From a virus, in the IMG/VR virus record IMGVR_UViG_3300045988_104520: DNA of 64,000 nt; one strand, 5' to 3'. The notes below the pieces were generated by a model, which worked only from the letters and a program-made list of their open reading frames with translations, was not told where the DNA came from and made no database searches. Of the stretch, positions 1 through 34,300 are shown piece after piece; positions within the stretch are counted from its first letter, which is position 1, and the number at the start of each line of letters is the position of its first letter. The translations under genes and the position numbers were made by a program.

Positions 1-180
1 CAAAATAGGGCAATCTCTTCCCACCAAAATTAAGACTTACAGCGTTTTAAAACAGCATAATGTAGTTTCTTCCCACCAAATAGGGCAATCTCTTCCCCCA
101 AAATTAAGACTTACAGCGTTTTAAAATAGTTTCTTCCCCCAAAATTCAATAGATCAGAGCTTTAAAACAGCATAATGTAG
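1..180. repeat. Iterated direct repeats: two ~73-75-bp units, a 15-nt iteron (A/T)TCTTCCC(A)CC(A)AAAT x4, and CAGCATAATGTAG x2
   Basis: Read directly. AAATAGGGCAATCTCTTCCC..AAAATTAAGACTTACAGCGTTTTAAAA occurs at 4-53 and again at 79-126. CAGCATAATGTAG occurs at 54-66 and 168-180. Iteron copies lie near 15-31, 66-80, 90-105 and 130-146. Confidence 0.8.
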
Positions 181-284
181 GTAAGAGTTAAGGACTGCAT
201 TATGTGAGTATTTTTTTCAATCGGAATGTATAACAATTAAAACATAAACAACATGAACGTATATGACTTTGCGCCTGACTTAGA

Positions 285-475
285 TTTGAGTAAGGAGGGA
301 GAAGGTTCTATTTTTGGAGTGAAAGGAATAGAAGGTAGTGAATGGTATAGTATATGCTAAGGTAGTTAGCTGTGCAGAAGTTAAGGATTACAGTTGTGAT
401 AGGTGTATTTTTTATGATTGTTATAAGGATAAATGTTTGTTATTGCGTAGTGATAGTTGTATAGATAGGGACTGG
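285..475 (+). other. C-depleted (almost G/A/T-only) stretch with recurring AAGG(T)A and GTGATAG short motifs; candidate origin or regulatory region
   Basis: The plus strand has only a handful of C in ~190 nt. AAGGTAGT, AAGGATTA, AAGGATAA, GTGATAGG, GTAGTGATAG and GTATAGATAG were read directly. Confidence 0.45.
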
Positions 476-854
476 TGTTGAGGCTGCCATAGAGGGGGAG
501 TAGGCGGCGCCTTGGGCTAAGGCCTGCGGTTGTAGGTGGAACATAGGTCGGAGCAGAGCCAGGACAGTTTATTGTGGAACGTAAAAAGAAAAAAGATGGA
601 AAGGACAATACATTATATTTGGATAAATTGGGTATCTTCTACAGGTTCGGAAAGTAGTAGGCTAATAAGCAACAGGTCTATGCCGGTATCAGATGCCAAA
701 GAGATGATATTAAGAACGAGTGCTAAAGAATTGCTTAAATACAGAGACCGAGTTGGTTAAAGGACTGTGTTCGTATTAGTGTAAGTGTACAGGATATTAC
801 GACCGGAGAGATCCTGTATAGAAGAACTATAAACATAAAGAAGAAGGAGATAGC

Positions 855-935
855 GATATGAAAAAGGCATTTAAGATATTTTCTATTATGTTTGTCATAG
901 AAATAGTGCTGATAGCTATTTTAGATGCTATGGCG
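855..935 (+). CDS. Possible 26-aa hydrophobic micropeptide (MKKAFKIFSIMFVIEIVLIAILDAMA)
   Basis: ATG preceded by AAGGAGATAGCGAT; in-frame TAA; below the ORF-track size cutoff. Speculative. Confidence 0.25.
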
Positions 936-969
936 TAAGTGAGAAAAATTTCTTCATTAATTTTCTTAT

Positions 970-1085
970 GCCTTAAACAGAGTGCTCCCGTCTGCGAAGA
1001 TCGGAACACTTGCTTTATGGGATTCATGGTGCGGTAGGTCGGTTCGATTCCGGCGATCTCACACAACATTAAAAACAAAGGAGGA
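970..1085 (+). other. Structured leader element A: imperfect hairpin around a TCTGCGAAGA mini-loop, then a T-arm-like GTCGG-TTCGATT-CCGGC, then a conserved block ending ~7 nt before the ATG at 1092
   Basis: A ~40-nt block GGTTCGATTC(C/T)GG(C/G)(G/C)ATCTCACA(C/A)AACA(T)TAAAA(A)CAAA is shared with element B. No acceptor-stem pairing was found, so it is not called as a tRNA. Confidence 0.35.
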
Positions 1086-1091
1086 AAGAAA

Positions 1092-1433
1092 ATGAAAGAT
1101 GGCATTAAATTGCATCCAGAACACGGATTGAATCCGTCTATAGAAGTCTGCATGATATGTGGCGAAGAGATGGGGATTGCTTTATTAGGGAATAACATCA
1201 AGGGGCAGGCGCCGCATCATATATGCACGGGCGAAGTATGTGACAATTGCAAAAAGATAATAGATGATGGAGGTTGTTTTATTATCGAAGTCGAGGATGG
1301 ATCAGATCAAAAGAATCCGTATCGTACAGGAAGATATTGTGCGATAAAGAAAGAGGCGGCAAAGAAAATGTTTGGACAGGAGCATAATATTGTGTACATG
1401 GAAAAGTCTGCGTACAATCTAATAATACCATAA
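1092..1433 (+). CDS. Hypothetical Zn-ribbon protein (CxxC ... CxxC)
   Basis: Intact ORF with AGGAGG-like spacer. Cys pairs CMICGEEM and CDNCKK. Confidence 0.6.
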   Translation: MKDGIKLHPEHGLNPSIEVCMICGEEMGIALLGNNIKGQAPHHICTGEVCDNCKKIIDDGGCFIIEVEDGSDQKNPYRTGRYCAIKKEAAKKMFGQEHNIVYMEKSAYNLIIP

Positions 1434-30667: not shown

Positions 30668-31156
30668 ATGGAAAAGAATTTAAAACTCATATGTCCAAAA
30701 TGTGGCACCCCTCACCAGCCTCATTCTCCGCACACGATGGATGCAGATGGATTTGAAAGGAGTGAGATAAGAACTGTCATGGAAGACAGGGGATGGTGCT
30801 ACGAATGCTCTTTTTGGCAAAACTTGTACGACAAGCACAAAGACGATCCTGGATGGGTTAGGATAGACGGTGTAAGCTGGGTGCTTAAGCCTATGGTGGA
30901 AAACGTACCGAGCGGATGGAACAGCCTTGGATGTGGTGGAAGAAAAATGTATATCAATATCGAAGGGAAAGGCATTGTTACATCAAATAACTGCTGGTGT
31001 CAAGGTGATGTTTCGGACGCATTCAAGGATCTTATGCCTGATAATGCTACTTGGGCTACGAAGGAGGAATTTGACAAAGCTCCTGTAGTAGGATATATTA
31101 TAGAAGGTGTTGGTTTGGTTTTCACAGATAGGGGAGGTCATGAAGTTAATGCTTAG
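30668..31156 (+). CDS. Hypothetical Zn-ribbon protein
   Basis: CPKCGTPHQPHSPH...CYEC. Confidence 0.55.
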   Translation: MEKNLKLICPKCGTPHQPHSPHTMDADGFERSEIRTVMEDRGWCYECSFWQNLYDKHKDDPGWVRIDGVSWVLKPMVENVPSGWNSLGCGGRKMYINIEGKGIVTSNNCWCQGDVSDAFKDLMPDNATWATKEEFDKAPVVGYIIEGVGLVFTDRGGHEVNA

Positions 31157-31197
31157 AAACTTAGGTAATTATATACCTTTTTTCATAACAAAAGAAA

Positions 31198-31229
31198 CCG
31201 GTTCTCTATCATCTCTGACTGAGGACCGG
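31198..31229 (-). terminator. Hairpin between the convergent blocks (9-bp stem CCGGTTCTC/GAGGACCGG); T-rich flank on the minus strand
   Basis: Read directly. The minus-strand flank is TTTCTTTTGTTATGAAAAAAGG; the plus-strand flank is A-rich. Confidence 0.5.
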
Positions 31230-31366
31230 TAAGAAAACAATTTCAGAAAAAATTTAACCTACATAATCTTTCAAGTAAGAACAAAAAACGTACAATCTAC
31301 TCTTTGACAATGCTAAGATAGTATATTGGGGTCATATCAAAACAATGCAAGCCCAATATTCTTCGT

Positions 31367-34300
31367 CTATTTATAACTTACATCATCATCCCCTTCCGAA
31401 TCAGGGGTGGCGCCGATGAAGAACATCATTGACTTATTGTTCGTCTGCTGCCACCAATTATAGGCGCGCGCTACGTCTTCCGGCGTCTTGATATTATACC
31501 ATTGTTTGATAAACGTCTGTTTGGTGAGTTGCCTAAATAACTTAGACTCTCCTTTGTATGTACCTGACGTCACCTTATCAAGTGAGTAGTTCCTAAGATC
31601 GGTAAGATCCTTAAGTTTCCGTCCCATAACAAATGGGTCGTTAATGATATCAACCACGTTAAGCTCCATAATAAATGGCATCTGTGAAGCTATTTCGTTT
31701 ATGGTTCTGAATCCGACGTAGGATCCGAATTGAGTAAGCCAACTTTCCTCGTTTTCATCATCATCACGCCACCCGGCAAGAAGCATAGATACGGCTTGCA
31801 TGATAAGGAACGTGCCGGCATAGACACTGAGACGTTTTAGATTGGTTTTCTCTACCTCATTCATATTGTCTTTATTTTCGTTCCAAGCATCTATGATGTT
31901 TTTCATACCAGACTCGGAAGCTAAGCTAAATGTTTTGGCTATCATATTCTTTAACGTAATTGACAGTCCTTCCTCTTCTTGCATTGTCTGGAAATTGAAG
32001 CCACGTCTTTTCCACAGACGTTGAGCCGCCAGCACCAACCATCCTCGGTGGGCGGTCATGAACCTGGCTATCCAGTTGCGTGATGCGGCAGTCCGATTTT
32101 CTTCATTCAAAGATCCGTTACATATCTGCGACAAGCTGCGAACTTGATTTCGAGTTATAGCCATCTGGGTTTCGACTTCCTCGGCAGTAACACCCGATCC
32201 AGGTTTTACGACCACCTTCCCATCCACAACATCTACCATACTCCATAAAGTACGATCTTTTAATGCATTCCATTCTCTTTTTATGGTACTCTGTTCTTTA
32301 TTTCGTTCTTTTTCCATCTTGAAATCTTGGAACGTGTAGAACCGGCCTTTATAGTATCGCACGTTATCCATAGTGGCAATCATAACCTGCGGGTCAAGAG
32401 GGTAGTTCAGGATTTCCATAAAAGCATACATCGGTGAACGCATTAAGGTCCTGGCCACTCTATTGTATCCGGCACCATACATACGATTTCGGATATTGAA
32501 TATCCCCATTCTCTCACCTATGACATATAATTTACTTTTTCTATCTATGTCTCCGGTTTCCGCTATACAAGATGGAGCAAGACGGGAAAACTCAGCCGAT
32601 GCGTATTTAAGGGAGTCTTTGCTTATATACTGTCCTACAGCTGATTCCATGATGAGGTTGATATGGCCGGTAAGGGCGCCGGTAGCTGCCACAAACGGAG
32701 ACAGTGCCAAGTTCATGACCGACATAAACCTTTCAATAGCCATCATAATTCTTGTAAGGTCTACTGTGTACCCACCGATGTTCACCGTAAGTTTTTTGGT
32801 GTTCATCCTAATGCCATAATAATGATCGTTGAAGAAGTCCCTGAACATCTGATATGCTTGGGTTGCTTCAGCCTTTTTCCCGCCTTCAAATTGCTTATTC
32901 AGCAACATCTGCTCCAGTCCTTGGGCGAGCTCTATAGACTTCTGCTTTTCGTTGTATAACGATGACTGCATCATAAGCATCGAATAAGAGTAACCAAAAT
33001 CGTGAGATACGTCATCTTGGTTCTCTAATTCATATATGTAGTATTTAGGTATGGACCGAACCCTATCTTCCGGATCATATACCTCACCCTGACGTGTTTT
33101 ACCATACAGGGAGTCATCTACGCGGTCAAGACATAAGTCGGATACGAAGTTCCTGACCGTACTTTTAAGGTTAATACCTAACCCTTCTATACGTTCTATA
33201 TCTTGTTTGGATATCTGTGGAATAGCATACAGATTAGGGCTCTGCTCTTTGTATAGATCAAGGGATTGTCTTTTTATTTCCTTGAGTTTTTGAATCATAT
33301 TCCACTGCTCTACGTTTTTAGTAGCAACTTCATTACCGTCAGCATCATACTTGATACCAAAGTCATTGAAATACGATTCATCACGATACAGGCTTTTCTT
33401 GGGCATACGATGACCATACCCATGATCTTTTACATAATCAGGGTTACGACCGCTATTTTCGGCTTCAGATTCAGCCACCCATGCCCTTGCAGGGTCGAAA
33501 GACAGGTACGATATGTCCATGCCATAATCTTGGGCGGATGTACCATTTTGTACGTCCTTAACCATCTGCGCCACATCTATCTCACCTCGACCGATTTTGT
33601 CGATCATGGCCGCATATCCGGTAGGCGCCATGCGTTTATAGTACGAAAAAACCTGGCTCCTGGCAAATTCATTAACAATAGCATTAGCTTCTTCTATGCC
33701 CGCTTTTATGTCAGCTTCTATACCCTCTTCTCTTGTATTATTTAAAAATAAGCTGGCCATCTTAGCATTAACAGCATTCCTGAAATCTCTACCGTCTAAT
33801 TCTTTGCTTATACCAAGCTTTTCTGACAGGTAGTTGGTTTCAGATACGGTAAACAGATATCGGTTATCAGCAGCCTTAAACAGCTTATCCCTTAAAGCCT
33901 GAATCCTTTTTGCTTTCTTCGCCGTAGTATGACGTTGTACGAACTTCCATTCCACTTCCTTGGAGTCAGCAAGAGCATTTAAATAAGACTGATTTACTTC
34001 GTTTTCAGCCTTACTGCTTTTAGTAAGGTACTTATCAATATCTTCAAGACCCACCATCTTAGCATAATCTATTAATATAGCGTAATCGGCTTCAATAGCT
34101 TCAGATGCGGCCCTAAAAGCATCTCTTTCAGATGAGGTAAATGTCGCTTCGTTAATTTCTCCGATATCAGCCACATCGCGATTGTTTCCGATTATTTCCT
34201 TGATAATGGCCTTATTTTTTTCTATATCTTTCACAATCGAATCCACGTCAGTCGCATCTCTATCACTTGTCGTAGAACTAATGATATCATGCGCCATTTT

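What the first reader, a model, noticed from the sequence alone, without database searches (positions are those of the whole stretch)
1..480. Iteron-like repeats followed by a C-depleted AAGG(T)A-rich tract at the window start
- Positions 1-180 carry two ~73-bp direct repeats, containing a 15-nt TCTTCCC(A)CC(A)AAAT iteron four times and CAGCATAATGTAG twice.
- Positions ~285-475 are almost devoid of C on the plus strand and are full of AAGG(T)A and GTGATAG-like short repeats.
- Coding starts only at ~1.1 kb.

This is typical of a replication origin, a packaging/terminal-repeat region or an early regulatory region. It could be the physical genome end. ORFs called here (381-608, 536-760) look spurious.
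Basis: seen in the sequence. Interest (0 to 1): 0.5.

Follow-up and report, generated by a model that had tools for sequence, protein, structure and literature searches.

The report
Variable repeat array before phage early genes
The window opens inside a tandem-repeat array of variable copy number that every relative of this gut crAss-like phage carries just upstream of its first early gene; the repeats look like reiterated protein-binding or control sites, their function is untested, and the "C-poor tract" next to them is a small conserved gene that is broken in this strain.

Summary
The repeats and the C-depleted tract are both real. The window comes from an epsilon crAss-like phage, 91% identical to crAssE-Sib.

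**The array.** Positions 1-180 are the right-hand part of a tandem array, cut off by the window start.
- More than 150 related contigs carry it.
- The unit is about 51 nt and has two conserved blocks and two dyad symmetries.
- Assembled arrays hold 1-10 units, plus sub-unit expansions of 17-44 nt.
- It occurs once per genome, always in the same orientation, 45-95 nt upstream of ORF1. ORF1 is the first gene of the 31-40 kb rightward block.

**Genome end and origin.** In crAssE-Sib the PhageTerm-derived genome start lies about 640 nt further upstream. Long contigs read through both that site and the array, and about 40 contigs break inside the array at random phases. The window start is therefore an assembly break, not the genome end. 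The cumulative GC-skew extremes lie at the gene-strand switches, not at the array.

**The C-poor tract.** Positions 253-503 are ORF1, an 86-aa Cys-rich protein. Here it is disrupted by a +1 insertion and an 11-nt deletion.

**Best reading (about 0.4).** The array is a set of reiterated promoter/operator-type binding modules that control early transcription. Replication iterons, packaging or partition sites, and a neutral minisatellite remain open.

The parts
1..180 (+). Right-hand part of the tandem array, cut off by the window start. Layout: unit 13-65; partial unit plus a repeated left-boundary motif (AAATAGGGCAATC) 66-87; unit lacking CAGCATAATG 88-129; unit 130-180. Family consensus of the unit: TTCTTCCAACAAAATT-[6-8 variable]-CAGnG(T/C)TTTAAAACAG(C/T)ATnnTGTAGG.
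   Evidence: window; relatives; single locus per genome
16..30 (+). Here it reads TCTTCCCACCAAAAT; further copies lie at 68-81, 91-104 and 132-145. The family core is CAACAAAATT. In relatives this block is often amplified on its own with periods of 17-24 nt.
42..65 (+). Block 2 of the unit (GCGTTTTAAAACAGCATAATGTAG; second full copy at 157-180). It contains the perfect 10-bp palindrome GTTTTAAAAC. Its 3' part (AT..TGTAGG) is an imperfect inverted repeat of block 1 of the next unit.
181..252 (+). Degenerate last unit (GTAAGAGTTAAGGACTGCATTATGTGAG), a T7 run at 211-217 whose length varies among relatives, and an A+T-rich leader running up to the ORF1 start codon. There is no Shine-Dalgarno-like sequence before ORF1.
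253..503 (+). ORF1, which accounts for the C-depleted tract. In relatives it is an 86-aa Cys-rich protein (MNVYDFAPDLDLSKE...CRYEQAAIEGE). In this strain an extra A at 341/342 gives a stop at 358-360, and an 11-nt deletion after 480 also disrupts it. The C-terminal part continues in another frame as ORF 338-481.
   Evidence: the same lesions occur in an independent ENA scaffold

Best explanation
The window begins inside a lineage-wide tandem array of variable copy number. The array forms the core of the phage's main non-coding control region.

Each unit of about 51 bp carries two dyad-symmetric elements:
- the perfect palindrome GTTTTAAAAC;
- a hyphenated inverted repeat, ATTCTGTAGG-N4-5-CCnACAAAAT, that spans the junction between units.

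I read the units as reiterated binding modules for a dimeric DNA-binding protein, coupled to the promoter of the early operon. The array would act as a promoter/operator cluster that sets or gates transcription of ORF1 and the 31-40 kb rightward block. This block is the first to be expressed from the genome end that lies about 0.65 kb upstream.

**Shown:** the anatomy, uniqueness, position, orientation, conservation and hypervariability of the array.

**Inferred:** protein binding, promoter activity, and that this genome end enters the cell first.

The adjacent C-poor tract is simply ORF1, the first gene of that operon.
For: - **One locus per genome**.
- **Position and orientation.** The array is always co-oriented with ORF1 and lies 45-95 nt upstream of it, in more than 150 contigs.
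- **A promoter is needed here.** The upstream gene block ends in terminator-like hairpins before the array, so the downstream block needs its own promoter in this interval.
- **The ORF1-proximal unit is the most conserved.** It is identical in 32 loci, while internal units come and go. At least one unit is always kept.
- **Conservation is blockwise.** There is a contiguous block of about 23 nt ending in TGTAGG.
- **Dyad symmetry.** Two dyads occur per unit; 70% of cells in the junction dyad are Watson-Crick pairs, with variants such as TGTAGG/CCTACA and TGTGGA/TCCACA.
- **No RNA structure.** A single unit does not fold better than shuffled sequence, so a DNA-level site is favoured.
- **Genome start nearby.** The PhageTerm genome start of crAssE-Sib is about 640 nt upstream.
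- **Known parallels (from established knowledge, not tested here).** T7 has three tandem early promoters 500-750 bp from the end that enters first. Lambda has triple operators at PR and PL.
- **Candidate regulators.** Epsilonunoviruses encode a repressor and antirepressors.
Against: - No sigma-70-type promoter lies on the + strand in or after the array, and no Bacteroidetes-type -33/-7 promoter lies within it or in the leader; the only + strand match sits inside ORF1.
- The motif does not recur before any other gene, which is unusual for a promoter family.
- No DNA-binding protein could be tied to it. ORF1 and its neighbours have no Pfam or PHROG function.
- Sub-unit expansions have many different periods (17-44 nt), so there is no fixed helical phasing. 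Slippage without selection would also give this pattern.
- The dyad is imperfect in most units: the commonest block-1 variant, CCAACA, gives an A-A mismatch.
- There are no expression or binding data.
- Copy numbers come from short-read assemblies, which can collapse repeats.
Confidence: 0.4

Rival explanations
1. Replication origin. The units, and especially the block-1 sub-repeats of 17-24 nt, would be iterons bound by a phage initiator. The A+T-rich leader downstream would be the unwinding element. Epsilon phages lack their own DNA polymerase and must recruit the host replisome.
For: - Direct repeats in one orientation; sub-arrays with periods of 21-22 nt (up to 10 copies) or 28 nt (up to 12 copies) contain CAACAAAATT.
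- A G-rich tract, the repeats and a 68-78% A+T stretch lie in that order.
- The locus is unique in the genome.
- The epsilon group encodes only a minimal replication set and no DNA polymerase.
- In the prototypic crAssphage, predicted origins, termini and the start of the forward gene block lie together.
Against: - The cumulative GC-skew extremes are at 17.7 and 110.7 kb, not at the array. Skew here follows gene orientation, so this is weak evidence.
- There is no DnaA-box cluster.
- No recognisable initiator lies adjacent. The replication genes lie 13-18 kb away.
- Some genomes assemble with a single unit.
- Repeat periods vary from 17 to 52 nt instead of being fixed.
Confidence: 0.2
2. Packaging or terminus-associated element. 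The array would be a terminase recognition (pac/cos-type) site, or reiterations that arise next to a recombinogenic genome end, as with the reiterated DR arrays in herpesvirus 'a' sequences.
For: - PhageTerm placed the crAssE-Sib genome start about 640 nt from the array (p = 1.5e-22 as reported).
- The region is hypervariable and rich in unusual DNA: a polypurine, G4-like microsatellite and A-tracts.
Against: - The array is 640-800 nt from the reported start and separated from it by a 61-codon ORF. Two 18-nt direct repeats (ATTGGTCTAAAACGAAAC), 20-120 nt from that start, are better candidates for terminase recognition.
- The record has no terminal repeat.
- Contigs from many samples read through both sites, and their ends are scattered.
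- Contigs that do end in the array stop at random phases, as expected from assembly breaks.
Confidence: 0.12
3. Centromere-like or episome-maintenance site. Tandem dyad-symmetric sites would be bound by a partition or tethering protein, as in F sopC (12 x 43 bp) or the EBV oriP family of repeats. This would support a plasmid-like carrier state.
For: - Tandem repeats each carry inverted repeats.
- Published suggestions exist that crAss-like phages, including epsilon phages, may persist as episomes.
Against: - No ParA/ParB-type protein was found among the roughly 20 nearby proteins scanned. The only P-loop protein hits SMC_N/AAA_21-type models.
- The array motif was not found as an array in any of 185,579 bacterial and archaeal genomes. 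There were 14 single matches, and I estimate about 9 by chance.
- Copy number can fall as low as one unit.
Confidence: 0.06
4. Largely neutral minisatellite. One ancestral functional site, whatever it does, lies in a slippage-prone leader, and the extra copies have no function of their own.
For: - Unit number, period and boundaries vary widely between close relatives: 17, 20, 21, 22, 24, 28, 44, 50-52 and about 75 nt.
- Some sub-arrays lack block 1 (L015 and L073).
- One-unit genomes exist.
- The flanking (GGGAGA)n tract is itself a variable microsatellite.
Against: - The array is present in every relative examined.
- The whole control region is nearly identical even where a neighbouring protein has diverged to 71% identity.
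- Most independent expansions include the same CAACAAAATT core: 156 of 208 TRF rows.
Confidence: 0.15
5. The array encodes an RNA product: a small-RNA array, a CRISPR-like repeat/spacer array, or a repeat-derived decoy.
For: - Adjacent units can pair through the palindromic core (z = -4.4 for a dimer).
- G-U-compatible mismatches in the junction dyad are more frequent on the minus strand (49 against 18).
- In phi14:2, early intergenic regions give abundant non-coding RNAs.
Against: - A single unit does not fold better than shuffled sequence (z = -0.8).
- The dimer fold is a trivial consequence of the palindrome.
- There is no repeat/spacer architecture, because the whole unit is conserved.
- No Rfam family matches.
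- The phi14:2 intergenic regions hold no comparable array.
- The wobble asymmetry rests on two positions and on sequences that are not independent.
Confidence: 0.05

Closest known systems
Tandem early promoter or operator clusters at the entering end of phage genomes (T7 A1/A2/A3 at about 500-750 bp from the left end; lambda OR1-3 and OL1-3)
   Same: - A cluster of similar modules in one orientation.
- A few hundred bp from a genome end.
- Directly upstream of the early operon.
- Dyad-symmetric sites, as in lambdoid operators.
   Different: - The units are true tandem repeats of 51 bp whose copy number varies between strains.
- No recognisable host promoter consensus.
- Binding protein and transcription starts are unknown.
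- The comparison rests on general knowledge, not on a test here.
Iteron-type replication origins and copy-control arrays (lambda ori, P1 oriR/incA, F, R6K, RK2)
   Same: - Direct repeats in one orientation.
- Periods of 17-24 nt in the block-1 sub-arrays.
- An A+T-rich stretch nearby.
- A single locus per replicon.
   Different: - The main period is 51 bp.
- The period is not fixed.
- No initiator gene lies adjacent or overlapping.
- No DnaA boxes.
- The array is not at a skew extreme.
Centromere or maintenance repeat arrays (F sopC, 12 x 43 bp; EBV oriP family of repeats, 20 x 30 bp)
   Same: Tandem units of tens of bp, each containing an inverted repeat.
   Different: - No partition genes were recognised.
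- Copy number can be as low as 1-3.
- The array sits in the leader of an operon of small early genes.
Virion-RNA-polymerase early promoters of N4-like and crAss-like phages
   Same: - Expected to be confined to the first DNA that enters the cell.
- These phages package an RNA polymerase.
- The motif is unique to one end-proximal locus.
   Different: - N4 promoters are hairpins of 5-7 bp with 3-nt loops. The only hairpin here (ACAG/CTGT) is 4 bp and is not maintained by covariation.
- For phi14:2 no common early motif was found.
Reiterated DR arrays next to herpesvirus genome termini ('a' sequence)
   Same: Hypervariable short tandem reiterations close to a packaging or cleavage site, in a virus with an HK97-fold capsid and a terminase.
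   Different: - The distance to the reported terminus is 640 nt.
- No terminal redundancy has been demonstrated.
- This is an analogy from general knowledge only.

Membership tests
Iteron-type replication origin | Several direct repeats of about 17-22 bp at a regular spacing | tested here: inconclusive
   The main unit is 50-52 bp. Sub-arrays of 17, 20, 21, 22, 24 and 28 nt occur in relatives but the period is not fixed. The window itself has four block-1 copies at irregular spacing.
Iteron-type replication origin | Initiator gene adjacent to or overlapping the repeats | tested here: not met
   The neighbouring ORFs have no Pfam or PHROG function. The replication genes (primase, DnaB-like helicase, 438-aa 'replication factor') lie 13-18 kb downstream, and no Rep-type domain was found.
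Iteron-type replication origin | Host-factor sites (DnaA boxes) and an A+T-rich unwinding element | tested here: not met
   No DnaA box with one mismatch or fewer occurs within 1.5 kb in crAssE-Sib, and one chance-level match occurs in the window. A+T is 68-78% after the array, only modestly above the genome average of about 62%.
   The minimum is at 17,716 and the maximum at 110,658 in the 151,256-bp relative; the array is at about 150,460-150,620.
Iteron-type replication origin | Replication starts there and the initiator binds the repeats | not testable with these tools
   This needs marker-frequency analysis, 2D gels or binding assays.
Physical genome terminus, terminal repeat or pac site | Virion DNA ends at this position | tested here: not met
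   The PhageTerm-derived start of crAssE-Sib is about 640 nt upstream of the array. Contigs begin in the array at random phases. Many contigs read through the array and the reported start.
Physical genome terminus, terminal repeat or pac site | The same sequence at both genome ends (direct terminal repeat), or doubled coverage | tested here: inconclusive
   The ends of the crAssE-Sib record share no repeat. Two IMG/VR contigs carry array units at both ends, as expected when a circular assembly is cut in a repeat. Coverage cannot be examined here.
Bacterial promoter (sigma-70 type, or Bacteroidetes -33/-7 type) | Consensus hexamers or TAnnTTTG at the correct spacing on the transcribed strand | tested here: not met
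   No + strand sigma-70-like site occurs in window 1-1239. The only bipartite TTTG-N-TAnnTTTG match on the + strand lies inside ORF1. A -7-like TAATTTTG exists only on the minus strand of some units, read directly from the sequence.
Operator array for a dimeric repressor | Dyad-symmetric sites overlapping or adjoining a promoter | tested here: inconclusive
   There are two dyads per unit: GTTTTAAAAC is perfect, and the junction dyad has 385 of 550 cells as Watson-Crick pairs. The promoter and the binding protein are unidentified.
CRISPR array or solitary repeat unit | Conserved repeats alternating with unrelated spacers | tested here: not met
   The entire unit is conserved and there are no spacers.
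Structured non-coding RNA family (Rfam) | Match to a curated covariance model, or a fold better than shuffled sequence | tested here: not met
   No Rfam match at the gathering threshold in 64 kb, and none relevant at E<=10 in 1-1500. A single unit gives z = -0.8.

The most novel reading that the evidence does not exclude
The array is the cis-acting heart of the epsilon crAss-like life cycle. Either it is the first identified promoter cluster for a crAss-type virion RNA polymerase, or it is a combined origin and maintenance element (iterons plus dyad sites) that lets these phages, which have no DNA polymerase of their own, persist as episomes. In both cases strain-to-strain differences in copy number would tune early expression or genome copy number.
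Probability: 0.15. Interest if true: 0.7.

Novelty: new member of a known kind. Interest (0 to 1): 0.4.

Why it matters
Epsilon crAss-like phages are abundant in the human gut, have never been cultured, and none of their cis-acting sites is known.

- **A candidate control element.** A unique, universally retained but hypervariable repeat array sits at the head of the early genes and next to the reported genome end. It is the obvious candidate for their early promoter/operator or origin. That gives a concrete target for binding assays, reporter constructs and transcript mapping.
- **Assembly consequences.** The array breaks short-read assemblies. This explains where many contigs of this family start and why genome starts in databases are arbitrary.
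- **Strain typing.** Its copy number could serve as a strain marker.
- **Annotation.** The work corrects the local annotation. ORF1 and a 26-codon ORF are likely genes, and ORF1 is a pseudogene in this strain.

Tried and rejected
- **Coding repeat.** 51 and 21 are multiples of 3, and two + strand frames of one unit type are open. But there is no start codon, other unit types carry stops, and arrays with periods of 50 and 52 nt shift the frame.
- **N4-type hairpin promoter.** The only hairpin (ACAG-loop-CTGT) has 4 bp, and the partner of invariant G40 varies freely.
- **CRISPR-like or Cas12a-handle resemblance.** There are no spacers and no CTAC...GTAG stem.
- **IHF sites.** ATCAGcgttTTA is one mismatch from the E. 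coli core consensus in one unit type only. No exact match lies in the array.
- **Terminator after the array.** The hairpin at window 171-204 (I14) is specific to this strain's last unit. It is not conserved and not called by the scan.
- **Minus-strand 'terminators' in L019.** This is the junction dyad. It is strong only in some unit variants.
- **Host identification through bacterial genomes.** Only chance-level single matches were found.
- **Equivalent array in phi14:2 early intergenic regions.** None was found. The search in phi17:2 was started and then abandoned, because that phage is too distant: TerL is 33% identical.
- **Resemblance of block 2 to the T7 class III promoter.** In register from -17 to +2, about 12 of 19 positions match. 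I compared these by eye from memory. No T7-like RNA polymerase is known in this phage, so this is kept only as a lead.
- **RNA structure in the GC-rich segments that flank the array and ORF1.** The z-scores are about 0.
- **Contig L018 starting near the PhageTerm site.** It starts 8 nt away from it, so it is not convincing independent evidence for a terminus.
Full report
**What the window is**

The first 3 kb are 91% identical to the end of OR575929.1, phage crAssE-Sib. That is a 151,256-bp epsilon crAss-like phage from human gut, genus 'Epsilonunovirus' (paper PMC11054128).

In the window, genes run on the + strand with strongly positive GC skew up to about 31 kb. After that they run on the minus strand. 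ARAGORN and Rfam find nothing at their thresholds.

**Checking the observation**

The repeats are real and not due to chance.
- Positions 3-55 recur at 78-129 with 51 of 53 identical.
- The 15-nt motif occurs four times within 16-145.
- The 20-mer TTTAAAACAGCATAATGTAG occurs at 46-65 and 161-180, against 0.02 expected, and nowhere else in 64 kb.

The C-poor tract is also real. It holds 7 C in 191 nt and is the lowest such stretch in the first 31 kb.

The third statement, that coding starts only at about 1.1 kb, is wrong (see ORF1 below).

**The array in relatives**

A degenerate 20-mer from the unit found 90 stretches in IMG/VR, nearly all on contigs of 80-170 kb. Exact-protein look-ups added ENA and Logan contigs.

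All of them show the same architecture, in this order:
1. a variable polypurine tract, (GGGAGA)n...GGGCAC;
2. often a run of sub-repeats made of the first part of the unit;
3. one to ten units of 50-52 nt;
4. a degenerate unit;
5. a T-run and an A+T-rich leader;
6. the ATG of ORF1.

From 148 distinct units the consensus is TTCTTCCAACAAAATT-[variable 6-8]-CAGnG(T/C)TTTAAAACAG(C/T)ATnnTGTAGG. It has two conserved blocks and a bimodal middle, AAGACTTA-like or CAACAGAT-like.

Among 48 arrays assembled between both boundaries, the median was 3 units (range 1-9 for block 2 and 1-10 for block 1). One-unit genomes exist: L053 and L173.

TRF on 143 loci gives periods of 17, 20, 21, 22, 24, 28, 44, 50-52, about 75-80 nt and multiples of these. 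In 156 of 208 rows the consensus contains CAAAATT. A few sub-arrays lack it (L015 and L073).

The window's own arrangement, a period of about 75 nt that includes the left-boundary motif AGGGCAATC, is one such variant. L036 has a similar one.

These copy numbers come from short-read assemblies, which can collapse repeats, so they are indicative only.

A profile of the unit hits only this locus in the window and in the complete crAssE-Sib genome. The array is therefore a unique cis element, not a dispersed motif.

**Is the window start a genome end?**

No.
- About 40 IMG/VR contigs begin inside the array, and they begin at arbitrary phases of the unit.
- One ENA contig ends in the array coming from the left (L183).
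- An ENA scaffold of the same strain as the window extends 216 nt further left, with more repeats and a run of N inside the array (L182).
- Many long contigs run straight through the array.

These are the marks of a repeat that short reads cannot resolve.

The authors of crAssE-Sib state that their 'pseudo-circular' assembly was opened at a start point predicted by PhageTerm, with p = 1.5e-22. In window orientation that point lies about 640 nt to the left of the array. The two ends of the record share no repeat. Their junction reproduces the contiguous sequence seen in other contigs.

Between that start point and the array, relatives carry the following features:
- two 18-nt direct repeats, ATTGGTCTAAAACGAAAC;
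- a terminator-like hairpin;
- a sigma-70-like TTGATT-17-TATAAT;
- a 61-codon membrane-type ORF;
- GC-rich spacers.

**Skew**

In the complete relative, the cumulative GC-skew minimum (17,716) and maximum (110,658) coincide with the divergent and convergent gene-strand switches. The array, at about 150.5 kb, lies in the middle of a co-oriented block. The argument is weak, because skew here simply follows gene orientation.

**The C-poor tract is ORF1**

In relatives an ATG corresponding to window 253 opens an 86-codon ORF: MNVYDFAPDLDLSKE.EGSIFGVKGIEGSDGIVYAKVVSC...CRYEQAAIEGE. It has seven or eight cysteines and is intact in 53 of 84 loci.
- In the first 40 codons, variability by codon position is 0.04, 0.09 and 0.27. 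This is the signature of purifying selection on a protein.
- In the C-terminal half, variation is equal at all three positions. That half is evolving fast or is under relaxed constraint.
- Gene callers in ENA and Logan also call the 86-aa product.
- It has no Pfam or PHROG match.

In the window the gene is broken twice:
- an extra A at 341/342 gives a stop at 358-360;
- an 11-nt deletion follows position 480.

A third indel, +AG at 743-744, breaks an 87-88-codon ORF that starts at 596. That ORF lies on a segment of about 240 nt that only about a quarter of relatives carry. All three lesions recur in the independent scaffold L182, so they belong to the strain and are not errors in this window alone.

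The 'GTGATAG-like repeats' are the codons for S-C-D-R-C-I and S-D-S-C-I (family D8).

Why ORF1 is so extremely C-poor, beyond its amino-acid and codon usage on an already G-over-C-skewed strand, remains unexplained.

**How the array might work**

Facts that bear on mechanism:
- **Uniqueness, position and orientation.** The array is unique, sits directly upstream of ORF1 and has a fixed orientation.
- **A promoter is needed.** The upstream block ends in terminator-like hairpins, so a promoter for ORF1 and the following 31-40 kb must lie between them and ORF1.
- **No standard promoter.** No sigma-70-type consensus lies on the + strand in or after the array, and the only Bacteroidetes-type match sits inside ORF1.
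- **Stable proximal unit.** The unit nearest ORF1 is the most stable across genomes, identical in 32 loci.
- **Two dyads per unit.** One is the perfect palindrome GTTTTAAAAC. The other is a junction-spanning inverted repeat, ATTCTGTAGG-N4-5-CCnACAAAAT. In the second, 385 of 550 cells are Watson-Crick pairs, mismatches concentrate at four positions, and variants such as TGTAGG/CCTACA and TGTGGA/TCCACA keep the pairing.
- **No RNA fold.** One unit does not fold better than shuffled sequence. The strong fold of a dimer is just the palindromes pairing.
- **Conserved control region.** The control region is almost unchanged even where the neighbouring PNK protein is only 71% identical.

I therefore favour reiterated DNA sites for a dimeric protein, coupled to the early promoter, that is, a promoter/operator cluster. 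I put this at about 0.4.

Two things fit this reading. The geometry resembles T7, which has three early promoters 500-750 bp from the entering end (general knowledge, not tested here). Epsilonunoviruses also encode a repressor and antirepressors.

Against this reading:
- there is no recognisable promoter;
- no binding protein has been identified;
- the variety of repeat periods is what slippage without selection would also produce.

**Rivals**

| Rival | Confidence | For | Against |
|---|---|---|---|
| Iteron origin | 0.2 | 17-24-nt sub-arrays; the G-tract / repeats / A+T-rich order; the group has no DNA polymerase of its own | no adjacent initiator, no DnaA boxes, irregular periods, one-unit genomes |
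| Packaging or terminus-associated | 0.12 | lies near the PhageTerm start | 640 nt away; better candidate repeats lie closer to that start |
| Neutral minisatellite around one functional site | 0.15 | see the rival explanations | see the rival explanations |
| Centromere-like | 0.06 | see the rival explanations | no Par proteins seen among about 20 proteins scanned; no trace in bacterial genomes |
| RNA product | 0.05 | see the rival explanations | |

**Comparison with what is known**

Neither the paper on crAssE-Sib nor the Yutin et al. description of the epsilon group mentions these repeats. Literature searches gave nothing specific.

For phi14:2, the only crAss-like phage with mapped early transcription, no common early motif was found. 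Its highly transcribed early intergenic regions contain no comparable array.

The element is thus an undescribed example of a familiar kind of thing, a reiterated cis-acting site in a phage control region. It has unusual plasticity and its function is unassigned.

**Verdict**

The array is a real control-region element near a reported genome end. It is not the physical end and not a skew-defined origin, and the C-poor tract is a gene.
- Interest is moderate, at 0.4.

Noticed in passing
window 966-1071 (+): A conserved structured RNA lies between the 26-codon ORF and the 113-codon ORF. It consists of a long hairpin followed by an acceptor-like stem that encloses a canonical T-arm (GGTTCGATTCC at 1041-1051). 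Two pairs in the hairpin show compensatory changes (AU to GC in 6 of 15 sequences). ARAGORN and Rfam do not call it. The related phage encodes a CCA-adding enzyme, PNK, a phosphodiesterase and a Ro60-like protein, so it may be a tRNA-like or Y-RNA-like substrate.
   Followed up: partly
L183 12960-13075; same element in many first-set loci: A second element carrying a T-arm (...GCGTTCGGTTCGAGTCCGGAGCAACC...) sits about 400 nt upstream of the PhageTerm start in relatives. tRNA-like elements therefore flank the control region on both sides. It is not in the window.
   Followed up: no
window 341-342, 480/481, 743-744: Three indels relative to the nearest relatives (+A, an 11-nt deletion, +AG) each break a conserved ORF: ORF1 twice and an 87-88-codon accessory ORF once. 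The same lesions occur in an independent ENA scaffold (L182), so they are features of the strain.
   Followed up: yes
window 408-413 (T6 run inside ORF1): In 10 of 84 relatives ORF1 ends after 54 codons (most end ...CIFL) just after this T-run, as a one-T slip would give. This could be slippage-based on/off variation, programmed frameshifting or sequencing error.
   Followed up: partly
window 858-938 (+): A 26-codon hydrophobic ORF (MKKAFKIFSIMFVIEIVLIAILDAMA) follows a strong AAGGAG ribosome-binding site. It is intact in 138 of 141 relatives and is probably a real small membrane peptide.
   Followed up: partly
window ~590-830: A segment of about 240 nt carrying the accessory ORF is present in only about 21 of the first 85 or so related loci. 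It is absent from crAssE-Sib and so is an insertion/deletion polymorphism in the early leader.
   Followed up: partly
L001 20-120 and 600-636; L019 9290-9915 (relatives, left of the window start): Near the PhageTerm start lie two 18-nt direct repeats, ATTGGTCTAAAACGAAAC, 80 nt apart. Immediately left of the array lies a variable (GGGAGA)n polypurine tract with four or more G-runs, which could form a G-quadruplex or triplex.
   Followed up: partly
window 1-180 versus 253-481: Local strand composition flips sharply. The array is C-rich and G-poor on the + strand (C 23%, G 12%), against the genome-wide G-over-C skew. ORF1 is almost free of C (6%).
   Followed up: partly
window ~31,000-31,400: GC skew and AT skew change sign where the + strand genes meet the minus-strand block of large structural genes (convergent transcription). 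This corresponds to the cumulative-skew maximum at 110.7 kb in crAssE-Sib.
   Followed up: partly
L176 6709-7932: In one relative an IS605-type OrfB/TnpB gene is inserted just after the second early gene. The early region therefore tolerates insertion of mobile elements.
   Followed up: no
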